In this document: one piece after another, positions 9,001-10,830 of the stretch
Position numbering within the stretch: the first letter of the stretch is position 1
Layout: each line of letters begins with the position of its first letter
Position numbers: made by a program
Virus record (IMG/VR): IMGVR_UViG_2563366997_000003
Source of the DNA: a virus
Taxonomy: Duplodnaviria; Heunggongvirae; Uroviricota; Caudoviricetes
DNA length: 10,830 nt
Strand: one strand, 5' to 3'

Positions 9001-10830
9001 AGAGCGGGCAGAGTGATGATTGAAACTTTTACGGCGGCACTTATCCCTACTGCCCTACTAAAAACGAGACGAGGCCAGACGTAGCAAGGCTTTAAACTAG
9101 GTAGGGATATATATTTTTATCCCTACTTATCCCTACATATCCCTACCAAATAAAACAGGCAGTAAAATGCCGTTGAAGTGATTTAGTAGGGATAAGTAGG
9201 GTTATGTAGGGCAACAAAATTGAATGCCTACCAGTCTGAAAGCCTTGCCATTCGTGGCCTGAGCCAGTTAGTAGGGATTGGTAGGGATATTACACCCCCA
9301 AAAAGATTCTATGGGGGGGGTGAGCTTAAAACGAAACTTGTCAAAACTTGACACACAGAACGATGCCACCAGCTACTGAGCGGCGGCATTTTTTTTGTGC
9401 TATTTGTTTCATATTTTGCAATTACGGTGATAAATATTGCGATTTGTGAAACTATAATAACTGTTGTTTTATACAGTTCTAAGGGGCGTTATGGCTATTT
9501 CAGTAAAGCCGGTATTGATAAGTGAGAAGCAAATGGAAGCGATAAAGAAAATTCAGGAGGAGCAGCGTAAAAAATCAGAGGTAGGAGTTGCGCCAACGAT
9601 CCACGAAATTGCTCGGGGATTAATGGATAAGGCGCTGGCCTCACTGGCAAGCGAGGGCGCGTAATGGGCGCCATTCACCAGATATATAAACCGGAAATGT
9701 TCTATAACTGGATAGGTGATGGTAAACGATGTGTAGCATTCCACGAAGCGGGACATGCAGTAGCTGCATGGCTTATTCGCTTAGATGTACAGGTTATCGC
9801 CGTTATGGATGAATATGGTTACGTTGCTGGCGAACATGTACATGAGGCCAAGTGTTTGGGTGTTGTTAAACACAGCATAATTCACAGCCACGATCTAGGG
9901 CGTTTGCGGGATAGTAAATCTGGTGTAGTTGGGCAGAATGGTAAAGTTATCCCTTTCATACGTTACTATGCGGATGGTATAAAGCGCGATGCAAAAAAGG
10001 CCGCTTTTGTATCCCTCGCCGGACCAGTAAGCGAAGCCCTTTACGAAAACAACGATATTTTCAACAAAAAGTATTCGCTACCTCATCGCTATGACATGGC
10101 TAACGTAAATGACATGCTCGATTTAATCTGCGCTACAGATAAGCAAATTAACAGGGAGTTAATGCTTTCTAAACTCGTTGAAAAGACCAAAGCCCTCATG
10201 GCTCAATACTGGTATGAAGTAGAAAAAATAGCGCATTTGCTTGAACGGGATAGCATTGTGAATGGTCGAAATGTTAGCTCGTTAATTGGCATCAACGTCA
10301 TAGACCGGGCAACGCCATTTTTGCTGGTGGAATAACTCCCGACCAAACTCATTCGATGATTCATTTCTCCACGGGTAAGCTATGCCGGTAGACCTAACTC
10401 CGCAGTATTACCGGAATCAGCCAGGCTACAGGCACACAGGAGGCCACGCAACACAATCCGCGCCGGGATGGGAGTTATATAATACCCCTGATGATTTTGA
10501 CCAACGCCCACCATTCGACGATGAAACGCCATTCTGGGGGAGATAAACATGGTAAACGACAGTAAAGCCGAGGATCTGGAAGCAAAAGGGCTGTACCGAC
10601 GCGCCGCAGCGCGATGGATGGAAGTCATGCTGTTATGCACCGAGGACGATGATCGGGAATGGATAAAGCGCCGCCGTGAAACGTGTCTGGAGAACGTGAA
10701 GCGCCCGCCCGTGAAGGTTGAGGACTTTGGCGACCTACATAAAGCTGTTACCGAAACGCAACACCGCATGGGGATAGCGCAACCGAACGGTAACGCCTTC
10801 CGGTTAAATGGCGGCAAGAGGCAAAGGTAG

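What the first reader, a model, noticed from the sequence alone, without database searches (positions are those of the whole stretch)
9491..10335. Coupled two-gene module: small RHH-like protein plus a standalone HEAGH zinc-metalloprotease domain, in a lower-GC patch past the origin
Seen in sequence: two genes overlap by TAATG (9662-9666); the second carries HEAGHAVAAW but is only 223 aa and has no P-loop, so it is a protease domain without the ATPase that normally accompanies the FtsH-type motif. The module is set off from the replication genes by the iteron origin and a terminator-like hairpin, and is lower in G+C than the primase operon. A small DNA-binding protein paired with a metalloprotease recalls the ImmR/ImmA repressor-protease switch of ICEBs1. 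Here the DNA binder looks RHH rather than HTH and the protease motif is M41-like rather than ImmA-like, so this may be an uncharacterised variant. Alternative readings are a toxin/antitoxin-like or anti-phage effector pair, or a protease aimed at a helper-phage repressor.
Basis: partly seen in the sequence, partly recalled or inferred. Interest (0 to 1): 0.72.

Follow-up and report, generated by a model that had tools for sequence, protein, structure and literature searches.

The report
ATPase-less FtsH-type protease on phage satellite
A phage-parasitising island of E. coli carries a free-standing copy of the FtsH protease domain behind a small, widely shared leader gene and a predicted SOS-controlled promoter; the protease is a mobile, fast-diverging cargo gene of unknown target, not half of a repressor-protease switch.

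Summary
The sequence facts hold. Two real genes (9491-9664 and 9664-10335) overlap at TAATG. The second encodes a soluble 223-aa protein with HEAGH and no ATPase. Both lie in a low-GC patch past the iteron origin of a PICI-type phage satellite.

Profile and structure searches place the 223-aa protein with the FtsH (M41) protease domain. The zinc ligands are invariant.

The pairing is not a dedicated system:
- The 57-aa gene and its promoter occur in about 9% of complete E. coli genomes. In all eight sampled, P22-type DNA-ejection protein genes follow it.
- The protease occurs without the small gene in four other satellite architectures, including the same island backbone.
- The window's small gene is a recombinant. 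Its first ~150 nt match an ejection-type island and its last ~30 nt match the E2348/69-type protease block. An ssb remnant marks the right junction.

A conserved LexA box sits between the -10 element and the start codon, so SOS induction is predicted. RHH identity of the small protein is unconfirmed.

Best reading: a satellite cargo protease used in phage-satellite conflict, target unknown. The ImmR/ImmA and toxin-antitoxin readings are not supported.

The parts
9039..9290 (.). Iteron replication origin (TAGGGAT(A)-type repeats in both orientations) of the satellite; left neighbour of the module
   Evidence: Repeat families D1/D2 and inverted pairs I1-I21. Identical in the sibling island L009. 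Two-block iteron origins are described for Gram-negative PICIs (PMC6092414).
9334..9353 (+). Tandem 10-mers AAACTTGTCA/AAACTTGACA; left edge of the imported segment (homology to about 500 other E. coli islands starts here)
   Evidence: Repeat D4. Megablast matches of about 500 genomes begin at window 9334. Conserved in L006 and L007.
9362..9396 (+). Intrinsic-terminator-like hairpin (GATGCC..GGCAT) followed by eight T's; ends the primase/origin transcript
   Evidence: ViennaRNA fold of 9355-9400 gives -17.5 kcal/mol. Conserved in L006 and L007. The consensus scan missed it because the loop exceeds 8 nt.
9406..9452 (.). Two palindromic boxes (TTTCAT-N4-TGCAAT at 9406-9422; ATTGCGAT-N3-GTGAAAC at 9436-9452) just upstream of the -10 element; candidate operator for an unidentified dimeric regulator, possibly the small protein
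   Evidence: Inverted repeat I10. Both boxes are conserved upstream of small-gene homologues in E. coli, Serratia, Raoultella and Erwinia (alignment A2). The only zero-mismatch match in the window is here.
9453..9458 (+). -10 hexamer TATAAT of the operon promoter; there is no good -35
   Evidence: Read from the sequence. Invariant in the six aligned promoter-bearing loci from four genera (the window, two further E. coli loci, Serratia, Raoultella, Erwinia).
9459..9478 (.). Predicted LexA (SOS) box AACTGTTGTTTTATACAGTT (CTGT-N8-ACAG), from just after the -10 hexamer to just before the Shine-Dalgarno (so over the expected transcription start)
   Evidence: It is the only CTGT-N8-ACAG in the window (expected 0.10). 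The box sits at the same place in E. coli L006/L007, Serratia L010 and Erwinia L014, and is degenerate in Raoultella.
9491..9664 (+). 57-aa leader gene of the satellite's post-origin operon; predicted extended N-terminus plus two helices. Recombinant: 9491 to about 9640 is identical to ejection-type islands; 9635-9664 is identical to the E2348/69-type protease block
   Evidence: ORF and Shine-Dalgarno. 45 homologue clusters in Enterobacterales. Invariant S29, GVAP 32-35, H38 and IARGL 40-44 / DKAL 46-49 (M45 varies). AF2 model. dN/dS 0.05-0.11. Crossover profile. The downstream genes differ between islands.
9664..10335 (+). 223-aa soluble, ATPase-less FtsH-type (M41-like) zinc metalloprotease; HEAGH at residues 27-31, predicted third zinc ligand D144
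   Evidence: Pfam M41 match over the motif only, below threshold. Profile versus PDB matches FtsH at residues 20-37 and 165-209. AF2 pLDDT 73.8, pTM 0.78. All top 50 Foldseek PDB hits are FtsH-family protease domains. The BFVD top hit is a 214-aa standalone M41 protein of an uncultured phage. Invariant residues. dN/dS 0.14-0.23. No Walker A or transmembrane segment.
10382..10546 (+). Remnant of the 3' end of an ssb gene (…DDFDQRPPFDDETPF, stop codon lost); scar that marks the right side of the cassette replacement
   Evidence: 30 of 31 residues identical to the C-terminus of the SSB of the sibling island L009. Homology to ssb-type islands resumes at about 10437.
10549..10830 (+). PerC-family regulator gene; backbone gene bounding the slot on the right, not part of the module
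   Evidence: Pfam PerC E=1.5e-29. The identical protein WP_001565836.1 is found in L001 and L009.

Best explanation
The window is a PICI-type phage satellite of E. coli. Its gene order is int, alpA, antA/B, icd with C4 RNA, P4-family primase, iteron origin, then a variable slot, then perC.

What is shown:
- The slot holds a short operon transcribed from a promoter with a perfect -10 element.
- A conserved LexA box lies between the -10 element and the Shine-Dalgarno.
- Gene 1 (57 aa) is the conserved leader gene of this post-origin operon across enterobacterial satellites.
- Gene 2 is a soluble, ATP-independent zinc endopeptidase with the fold and the catalytic residues of the FtsH (M41) protease domain.
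- Gene 2 is a mobile cargo gene. It was joined to this promoter by a crossover inside the leader gene, and the segment replaced most of an ssb cassette.

What is inferred:
- In a resting cell LexA keeps the operon off.
- DNA damage, which also induces helper prophages, derepresses the operon. The protease is then made by translational coupling to the leader gene.
- The protease cleaves a phage protein, from the helper or a competitor, or a host protein. This biases phage development in the satellite's favour (interference or defence).
- The target is unknown.
For: Satellite identity:
- The gene order and annotations match described PICIs (PMC6092414; PMC11773190).

Protease identity and activity:
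- FtsH is the only structural and profile match.
- The H-E-x-x-H motif and the Asp aligned with FtsH's third zinc ligand are invariant from 97% down to 22% identity.
- Selection is purifying.

Cargo behaviour:
- The same backbone carries three other slot contents. These are hyp100+SSB (L009), hyp100+SSB+protease (L096), and hyp100 plus a 28%-identical M41-like allele (L123).
- An ssb scar lies at 10382-10546.
- The leader gene is chimeric.
- The patch has low G+C.

Satellite restriction:
- Every Enterobacterales-family copy (22-97% identical) whose context was examined lies in a satellite, after the primase or the integrase. Remote standalone relatives in other phyla lie elsewhere.
- No copy was found in 50,697 phage genomes.
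- The family is small: 26 cluster representatives at E<=1e-3 among 1.84 billion.

Conflict-gene neighbourhood:
- The post-origin position is where PICIs keep interference and packaging genes (PMC6092414).
- A Rosmer system lies next to the protease block in E2348/69-type islands.
- Rosmer and an AriA/PD-T4-4-like ATPase gene pair (AriA-like) lie next to the leader operon in Raoultella islands, and an AbiD gene lies downstream of the ejection-protein operon in an E. coli island (L006).
- Alleles in one slot range from 22 to 97% identity.

SOS control:
- The LexA box is unique in the window, high-scoring, and conserved in position across three genera.
- There is a precedent in SaPI operon I, which is controlled by LexA (Ubeda 2007, cited in PMC6092414).
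Against: - No experiment or paper bears on this family.
- It matches no PADLOC defence model, so a defence role rests on context only.
- The same slot in other satellites holds homologues of virion proteins: ejection proteins, tape measure, baseplate, capsid. That would fit a morphogenetic role at least as well.
- The E2348/69-type and cf-PICI-type copies have no LexA box. SOS timing is therefore a property of this promoter cassette, not of the protease.
- The promoter has no recognisable -35 and may need an activator.
- The LexA matrix was built from boxes recalled from memory.
- FtsH needs its ATPase to unfold substrates. A bare M41 domain may only cut unstructured segments, or may not act as a protease at all in vivo.
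Confidence: 0.5

Rival explanations
1. Morphogenesis or virion-linked protease. The M41-like protein processes, or travels with, helper or satellite virion proteins (ejection, tail or capsid proteins). It would do the job that ejection-protein, tape-measure or baseplate homologues do in the same operon of other satellites.
For: - The gene right after the leader gene is a P22 gp14/gp7/gp20/gp16 homologue in 8 of 8 sampled E. coli islands and in Serratia. It is tape-measure-like in Erwinia and Raoultella.
- After the 183-aa leader it is a baseplate or tail protein homologue in Klebsiella and Enterobacter.
- In L114 the protease directly precedes a DUF2280 (a domain I take, from memory, to be small-terminase-like; Pfam lists it only as uncharacterised) gene, a cement protein gene and a major capsid gene. 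This is the cf-PICI layout.
- One remote relative (P0098) is a fusion of a tail J/I-like N-terminus (phrog_31, E=3.5e-19) to an M41-like domain.
Against: - No homologue was found in 50,697 sequenced phages.
- The window's island and its siblings carry no recognisable virion genes for it to act on.
- The protease is dispensable in sibling islands (L009).
- Known prohead proteases belong to other families (my own knowledge).
Confidence: 0.2
2. ImmR/ImmA-like switch. The small protein is a DNA-binding repressor, and the protease cleaves it, or a helper-phage repressor, to flip the satellite or helper into its lytic programme.
For: - The two genes are translationally coupled here. The same 1-nt overlap is found in E2348/69-type and cf-PICI-type islands.
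- The small protein has a beta(?)-alpha-alpha layout and basic pI.
- Conserved palindromes lie upstream of its promoter.
- NCBI names the other frequent upstream gene (183 aa) 'XRE family regulator'.
Against: - The small gene occurs about ten times more often without the protease.
- The protease occurs without the small gene in four architectures.
- There is no Peptidase_M78 or HTH signature.
- RHH identity is unconfirmed.
- Pfam finds no HTH in the 183-aa protein.
- SOS sensing is already provided by a LexA box.
- The island has AlpA and C4 RNA control.
Confidence: 0.08
3. Toxin-antitoxin or abortive-infection pair. The protease is toxic and the small protein neutralises it.
For: - The layout looks like a two-gene operon with a small first gene overlapping a larger enzyme gene.
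- Satellites often carry such systems (PMC9122126, listed).
Against: - Strain 50EVAW keeps an intact protease gene after losing all but the last ~36 nt of the small gene.
- The Dickeya, L116/L120 and L122-L124 copies have no small gene.
- The small gene is mostly paired with non-toxic virion genes.
- There is no PADLOC match.
Confidence: 0.05
4. Modulator of host FtsH. The free protease domain mixes with, or competes against, the host FtsH ring. This would change turnover of FtsH substrates such as lambdoid CII/CIII, and so the helper's lysis-lysogeny choice.
For: - The fold is shared with the FtsH protease domain, which forms the hexamer interface (the hexamer role is my own knowledge of FtsH structures such as 2DI4 and 2CE7).
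- Helper phages of such islands are lambdoid or P22-like (PMC6092414; PMC11773190).
Against: - Sequence identity to FtsH is only 10-16%.
- FtsH itself is not found by an exhaustive phmmer search, so a conserved interface is unlikely.
- The strict conservation of catalytic residues argues for an enzyme, not a decoy.
- There is no direct evidence.
Confidence: 0.04

Closest known systems
FtsH / AFG3L2 / YME1 (MEROPS family M41, Pfam PF01434)
   Same: - The HEAGHA zinc motif.
- A downstream LAGP.(S/A)E segment and an Asp aligned with the third zinc ligand.
- C-terminal helices, and the overall fold (Foldseek E=6e-5, TM about 0.53).
   Different: - No AAA+ module and no membrane anchor.
- 10-16% identity.
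- Below Pfam's gathering score (21.4 versus 29.9 bits).
- An extra beta-rich insert at about residues 48-100 that minimal relatives lack.
- Encoded on a phage satellite.
SaPI operon I (LexA-controlled packaging/interference operon of staphylococcal pathogenicity islands)
   Same: - An operon directly downstream of the satellite's replication origin, transcribed in the same direction.
- It carries helper-exploitation or interference genes.
- It is preceded by a LexA box (Ubeda 2007 as cited in PMC6092414; organisation).
   Different: - LexA binding is only predicted here.
- The gene content is unrelated.
- No SaPI interference protein is a protease (my own knowledge).
ImmA/ImmR of ICEBs1 and IrrE/DdrO (M78 anti-repressor proteases)
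   Same: A small HEXXH metalloprotease encoded next to a small putative regulator on a mobile element.
   Different: - A different protease family: no PF06114 match.
- The partner is not an HTH repressor.
- The pairing is not conserved.
- Genuine M78-HTH proteins (Rosmer RmrA) sit elsewhere in related islands.
Lit protease of prophage e14 (zinc metalloprotease that cleaves EF-Tu on phage T4 infection)
   Same: A single-gene HEXXH metalloprotease carried by a defective prophage or satellite and acting in phage conflict. This is an analogy from my own knowledge.
   Different: - A different family (Peptidase_U49). There was no match here, in Pfam or PADLOC.
- No evidence exists for the trigger or the target of the M41-like protein.
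Standalone 'Peptidase M41 domain-containing protein' of uncultured Caudovirales (UniProt A0A6J5RJ76, 214 aa)
   Same: Same size and same fold without the ATPase. It is the best BFVD match (E=7e-6, TM 0.55-0.57).
   Different: 16% identity, unknown context, and also uncharacterised.

Membership tests
Peptidase family M41 (FtsH-type) | HEXXH zinc-binding motif plus a downstream Asp as third ligand | tested here: met
   HEAGH is at residues 27-31. D144 is invariant in 19 close and 17 remote sequences, and lies in a (G/S)xxD segment like FtsH's GASND. The ligand role is inferred from alignment; there was no metal-site modelling.
Peptidase family M41 (FtsH-type) | M41 protease-domain fold | tested here: met
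   AF2 model with pTM 0.78. All 50 best Foldseek PDB hits are FtsH-family protease domains, best E=5.9e-5, TM 0.53-0.56.
Peptidase family M41 (FtsH-type) | Pfam PF01434 match above the gathering score | tested here: not met
   21.4 bits against a cut-off of 29.9, covering only residues 21-41. One homologue cluster (P0007) has a precomputed PF01434 hit.
Peptidase family M41 (FtsH-type) | N-terminal AAA+ ATPase module and membrane anchor | tested here: not met
   No Walker A, no AAA Pfam hit, no hydrophobic segment, 223 aa in all.
ImmA/IrrE anti-repressor proteases (Peptidase_M78) with a cognate repressor | PF06114 domain | tested here: not met
   No match even at E<=10. True M78 proteins in related islands are found easily.
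ImmA/IrrE anti-repressor proteases (Peptidase_M78) with a cognate repressor | Conserved adjacency to its substrate repressor | tested here: not met
   The small gene is found without the protease in about 500 E. coli genomes. The protease is found without the small gene in four architectures.
Ribbon-helix-helix (Arc/MetJ/CopG) DNA-binding proteins (for the 57-aa protein) | N-terminal beta-strand followed by two helices, and recognisable homology | tested here: inconclusive
   The AF2 monomer shows residues 1-11 extended, helices at 12-28 and 37-55, pLDDT 76. There was no Pfam hit, no PDB profile hit and no Foldseek PDB hit. No dimer model could be made.
Type II toxin-antitoxin pair | Obligate co-occurrence of the two genes | tested here: not met
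   An intact protease gene is kept after loss of the small gene in 50EVAW.
Phage-inducible chromosomal island (Gram-negative PICI) | int, alpA, primase/rep, iteron origin, all co-oriented, no lysis genes, about 10-15 kb | tested here: met
   ORFs and annotations, iterons, int-alpA RNA, criteria from PMC6092414. Helper-dependent induction is not testable here.
LexA (SOS) regulon | CTGT-N8-ACAG box overlapping the promoter | tested here: met
   The site at 9459-9478 is unique in the window (expected 0.10) and scores 21.8 bits. It begins immediately after the -10 hexamer and is conserved in E. coli, Serratia and Erwinia islands.
LexA (SOS) regulon | LexA binding and SOS-dependent induction | not testable with these tools
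   Needs EMSA or ChIP and reporter assays.
Known anti-phage defence systems (PADLOC-DB 2.0.0) | Match to a model of a known or candidate defence protein | tested here: not met
   No hit for the protease, and only a chance-level Cas11a hit (E=0.017) for the small protein.

The most novel reading that the evidence does not exclude
Enterobacterial phage satellites carry a fast-diverging family of ATPase-less FtsH-type proteases. These would be a previously unrecognised, proteolysis-based way to interfere with helper or competitor phages. In this island the protease is wired to the SOS response through a LexA-controlled late operon. Its target would be a specific phage protein such as a repressor, scaffold, ejection or tail protein, and the 22-97% allelic spread would reflect an arms race with that target.
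Probability: 0.3. Interest if true: 0.7.

Novelty: new variant of a known kind. Interest (0 to 1): 0.5.

Why it matters
- No satellite interference or anti-phage mechanism based on an FtsH-type protease is known to me, and none turned up in the papers searched. A free M41 domain that works without its unfoldase would also be of biochemical interest.
- The gene is easy to test. It is present in the reference EPEC strain E2348/69 and widespread in Salmonella.
- The context analysis gives three further handles on Gram-negative PICIs:
  - a conserved leader gene and promoter with a predicted LexA box, a possible counterpart of SaPI operon I;
  - a post-origin slot whose cargo is swapped by recombination inside the leader gene;
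  - satellite-borne copies of P22-type ejection proteins in about 9% of complete E. coli genomes.

Tried and rejected
- PHROGs gave no hit and NCBIfam only chance-level ones for either protein.
- PADLOC gave only a chance-level Cas11a hit for the small protein.
- tblastn of both proteins against 50,697 phage genomes found nothing.
- A Foldseek search and a PDB profile search with the small protein found nothing usable. RHH remains unproven.
- Contexts of about 12 remote standalone M41-like proteins (Planctomycetota, Acidobacteriota and others) were heterogeneous, with no conserved partner. They say nothing about function. Most of the 80 loci returned there were ordinary FtsH genes.
- I looked for a LexA box in front of the E2348/69-type, Klebsiella-type, Dickeya and ssb-type operons. 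None was found; the best score was 8.8 bits.
- The 183-aa 'XRE family' leader protein has no Pfam, PHROG or PADLOC match, so its NCBI name is unverified.
- Six literature searches and term look-ups in the five papers opened found nothing on M41 proteases in satellites; the LexA search led only to the SaPI operon I citation.
- I considered that the protease is a decaying relic. I rejected this because dN/dS is 0.14-0.23 and the catalytic residues are invariant. True relics do exist: P0022 is an AntA-M41 fusion that lacks HEXXH.
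Full report
**1. What the window is**

The 10.8-kb window reads as a Gram-negative phage-inducible chromosomal island (PICI), all on one strand. The gene order is:
- integrase (1-1260)
- a DUF6387 gene
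- an AlpA-type regulator (2334-2537)
- an AntA/AntB protein (2981-3814)
- an Icd-like region
- a P4-family primase (6525-9023)
- an iteron origin (9039-9290)
- the two genes of the finding
- a PerC-family gene (10549-10830)

Rfam adds an int-alpA RNA (1289-1355), isrK (4414-4490) and a C4 antisense RNA (4539-4626). The island therefore has P4-style RNA immunity. This organisation matches published descriptions of E. coli PICIs (PMC6092414; PMC11773190). Those papers state that genes just after the origin, in the same orientation, are the interference and packaging genes.

**2. Checking the observation**

- ORF 9491-9664 (57 aa) has a Shine-Dalgarno AAGGGG at 9481-9486.
- ORF 9664-10335 (223 aa) has GAGGG at 9653-9657. 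TAA and ATG share base 9664, giving TAATG at 9662-9666.
- HEAGHAVAAW is residues 27-36. There is no Walker A motif and no transmembrane segment.
- The iterons are real.
- So is the hairpin at 9362-9389, followed by eight T's; the stretch 9355-9400 folds at -17.5 kcal/mol.
- G+C is 0.438 over 9334-10436, against 0.549 in the primase gene and 0.557 in perC.

Both ORFs are genuine genes.
- The protease has 29 homologue clusters in Enterobacterales. Its dN/dS is 0.14-0.23.
- The small gene has 45 clusters. Its dN/dS is 0.05-0.11.

**3. The 223-aa protein is a free FtsH-type protease domain**

- Pfam sees only the motif helix, below threshold.
- A profile of the family matches FtsH chains at both the HEXXH helix (residues 20-37) and the C-terminal helices (165-209).
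- The AlphaFold model has pLDDT 73.8 and pTM 0.78. Against the PDB it retrieves only FtsH, AFG3L2, YME1 and FtsHi protease domains in its top 50.
- Against viral models, the best hit is a 214-aa standalone 'Peptidase M41 domain-containing protein' of an uncultured tailed phage.
- H27, E28, H31, G120 and D144 are invariant in close relatives and in relatives of 25-38% identity; P121 and E124 vary only in a few remote relatives. The 22-28% alleles found later keep HEXXH and the Asp but read AQ in place of E124.
- D144 sits in a (G/S)xxD segment like the GASND that carries the third zinc ligand of FtsH. That last comparison rests on my own knowledge of FtsH.
- An exhaustive HMMER search found only 26 representatives at E<=1e-3 among 1.84 billion. 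The longer, non-fragmentary ones run about 150-290 aa without an ATPase, apart from one 402-aa tail-protein fusion (P0098), and FtsH itself is not among them.

The protein works like an M41 catalytic domain. It is not an FtsH: the ATPase and the membrane anchor, both defining features, are absent.

**4. The two genes are not a dedicated pair**

The small gene occurs far more often without the protease.
- A megablast of 8900-10830 against 5426 complete E. coli genomes gives 674 genomes with some match.
- About 500 of them match only window 9334-9645, which is the promoter region plus nearly all of the small gene.
- In all eight such loci that I opened, the small gene is followed by homologues of P22 gp14 (DUF2824), gp7, gp20 and gp16, the DNA-ejection proteins.
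- In Serratia the small gene precedes an injectosome translocase and a gp16-like transglycosylase.
- In Erwinia it precedes a tape-measure-like protein. In Raoultella it precedes a 605-aa tape-measure/transglycosylase-like protein.

The protease occurs without the small gene in four other architectures.
- Dickeya: primase-SSB-327 aa-M41-lipoprotein.
- L002, L003, L116 and L120: primase-183 aa-55/62 aa-M41.
- L122-L124: alleles 22-28% identical.
- Strain 50EVAW, which has the same island backbone as the window: primase-hyp100-SSB-M41-perC.

In 50EVAW only the last ~36 nt of the small gene survive. They are fused to the first codons of perC as an 18-codon ORF, yet the protease gene is intact. 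An antitoxin or a cognate repressor would not be lost in this way.

The pair does recur, with the same 1-nt overlap, in a block 183 aa-62 aa-58 aa-M41.
- In E2348/69, in Salmonella (P0005, 352 collection blocks) and in L106, the block lies next to the integrase of yicC-inserted islands.
- In L114, L115 and L117, it lies after the primase of capsid-forming satellites.

The small gene is therefore a frequent neighbour but not an obligatory one.

The 183-aa gene behaves the same way. It leads post-primase operons of baseplate and tail homologues in Klebsiella and Enterobacter satellites that have no protease.

**5. How the window's arrangement arose**

- The sibling island of strain MB51 has a near-identical primase gene (98.8% nucleotide identity over the aligned pieces) and the same PerC protein (WP_001565836.1). 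It carries 'hyp100 + ssb' in the slot.
- The window still holds the last 31 codons of that ssb at 10382-10546, 30 of 31 residues identical and with the stop codon lost.
- Within the small gene, nt 9491 to about 9640 are 100% identical to an ejection-type island (L006).
- Nt 9635-9664 are 100% identical to the E2348/69-type block. The protease gene is 90-91% identical to that block.

The window is thus a three-way mosaic. A crossover inside the conserved leader gene put the protease under the ejection-type promoter, and the segment displaced most of ssb. This explains the low-GC patch.

The same backbone also exists with a 28%-identical M41-like allele (L123: primase 99%, hyp100 100%).

**6.

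- A perfect TATAAT lies at 9453-9458.
- Immediately after it comes AACTGTTGTTTTATACAGTT (9459-9478), which contains CTGT-N8-ACAG.
- This is the only such site in the window (0.10 expected by chance).
- It scores 21.8 bits on a matrix of 20 E. coli SOS boxes.
- The next best site in the window scores 9.7. Known boxes have a leave-one-out median of 19.3.
- The -10 element and the box are conserved at the same place upstream of small-gene homologues in E. coli, Serratia and Erwinia. The box is degenerate in Raoultella.
- Two palindromic boxes (9406-9422 and 9436-9452) just upstream are conserved across all four genera. They are candidate operators, perhaps for the small protein itself. This is untested.
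- There is no good -35.

The closest precedent is SaPI operon I, the post-origin packaging and interference operon 'controlled by LexA' (Ubeda 2007, cited in PMC6092414). The E2348/69-type, Klebsiella-type and ssb-type operons have no LexA box.

**7. The small protein**

- Its most conserved part is S29, GVAP(T) at 32-36, H38, and IARGL 40-44 / DKAL 46-49.
- The model shows an extended N-terminus, a helix at 12-28, an 8-residue loop and a helix at 37-55.
- This is compatible with a ribbon-helix-helix monomer. No family, PDB-sequence or fold search supports it.
- I treat it as the leader gene of the operon, possibly a regulator, with function unproven.

**8. What the protease most likely does**

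Shown:
- It has the M41 catalytic architecture.
- It is under purifying selection.
- Within the Enterobacterales family (22-97% identity) it is found only in satellites, in each of the dozen-odd architectures examined; remote standalone relatives occur in other phyla and in an uncultured phage.
- It was not found in cultured phages.
- It is swapped as a cassette.
- Alleles in the same slot range from 22 to 97% identity.

Context:
- It sits in the operon that PICIs use for helper exploitation and interference.
- In E2348/69-type islands it lies beside a Rosmer defence system: RmrA E=3.5e-125, RmrT E=8e-16.
- Rosmer and an AriA/PD-T4-4-like ATPase gene pair (AriA-like) flank the leader operon in the Raoultella islands, and an AbiD gene lies downstream of the ejection-protein operon in E. 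coli L006.

Inferred:
- On SOS induction the protease is produced.
- It cuts a phage or host protein to the satellite's advantage.

I give this 0.5.

The main rival (0.2) is a morphogenesis-linked role. Three things suggest it:
- the virion-protein homologues that occupy the slot elsewhere;
- the DUF2280 (a putative small-terminase domain, from memory) and capsid genes right after the protease in L114;
- a tail-protein::M41-like fusion (P0098).

The ImmR/ImmA (0.08), toxin-antitoxin (0.05) and FtsH-modulator (0.04) readings have little or no support.

**9. Novelty and score**

- NCBI already labels these proteins 'peptidase M41 family protein'.
- I found no study of them. Six searches and term look-ups in the five papers opened found nothing on such proteases.
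- There is no defence-database entry.

This is a new variant of a known kind: an FtsH catalytic domain stripped of its motor and used as satellite cargo. Interest is moderate at 0.5. It would be higher (about 0.7) if a proteolytic interference or defence mechanism were shown.

Noticed in passing
window 9453-9478: A perfect -10 element (TATAAT) is immediately followed by a LexA-box-like site, AACTGTTGTTTTATACAGTT. It is the only CTGT-N8-ACAG in the window. It is conserved upstream of small-gene homologues in E. coli, Serratia and Erwinia satellites. This would be a Gram-negative counterpart of the LexA-controlled SaPI operon I.
   Followed up: yes
window 9406-9422 and 9436-9452: Two palindromic boxes (TTTCAT-N4-TGCAAT and ATTGCGAT-N3-GTGAAAC) lie upstream of the -10 element. 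They are conserved in four genera. The protein that binds them is unknown.
   Followed up: partly
window 10382-10546: An ORF ending …DDFDQRPPFDDETPF is the remnant of an ssb gene tail, 30 of 31 residues identical to the SSB of a sibling island. The stop codon has mutated to TGG. It is the scar of a cassette replacement.
   Followed up: yes
window 9491-9664: The small gene is a recombinant. The first ~150 nt are 100% identical to ejection-type PICIs, and the last ~30 nt are 100% identical to the E2348/69-type protease block. The conserved leader gene thus serves as the crossover site for cargo exchange.
   Followed up: yes
window 4414-4490, 4539-4626 and 1289-1355: Rfam finds isrK, a C4 antisense RNA (the P4 CI-RNA family) and an int-alpA RNA. 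The long ORF 3928-4872 that covers the first two RNAs (RefSeq calls a homologous 873-nt CDS 'Icd-like') is probably spurious over that stretch. The island uses P4-style RNA immunity.
   Followed up: partly
window 9334-9353: A tandem pair AAACTTGTCA/AAACTTGACA lies exactly where homology to about 500 other E. coli islands begins. Its function is unknown.
   Followed up: no
L006, L007, L108-L113 (E. coli); L010 (Serratia): About 9% of complete E. coli genomes carry satellites whose LexA-box operon encodes homologues of P22 gp14, gp7, gp20 and gp16, the DNA-ejection proteins. It is not clear why a satellite supplies its own ejection proteins.
   Followed up: partly
L008 9842-11709 (E2348/69); L013 3232-4969; L012 3384-5310: A Rosmer system (RmrT + RmrA) lies next to the protease block in E2348/69-type islands. 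Rosmer or an AriA/PD-T4-4-like ATPase pair lies just upstream of the leader operon in Raoultella satellites. These positions look like defence hotspots.
   Followed up: partly
L123 7908-8609; L124 7953-8609: M41-like alleles only 28% and 22% identical to the window's protein occupy the same post-origin slot, L123 in the very same backbone. An exported 116-aa protein, or a 351-368-aa lipoprotein that is itself 70% conserved, follows them.
   Followed up: partly
L096 5960-6040 (strain 50EVAW): An 18-codon chimeric ORF (MVNDSKAE from perC plus ALASLASEGA from the small gene) precedes an intact protease gene. This is an illegitimate-recombination junction and shows the protease can persist without the small protein.
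   Followed up: yes
P0022 / L107 4863-5543: A 226-aa 'peptidase M41 family protein' seen on 66 contigs is really a deletion fusion. The AntA N-terminus is joined to the protease from residue 44 on, so HEXXH is missing. It sits in a decayed island next to yicC.
   Followed up: yes
P0098 (402 aa, metagenomic): The N-terminal 180 residues match phage central tail fibre J and tail assembly protein I families (phrog_31, E=3.5e-19). They are fused to an M41-like domain with HESGH.
   Followed up: partly
L114 8790-11300; L117: In capsid-forming satellites the block 183 aa-small gene-M41 sits directly in front of DUF2280 (a putative small-terminase domain, from memory), cement-protein and major-capsid genes.
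   Followed up: partly
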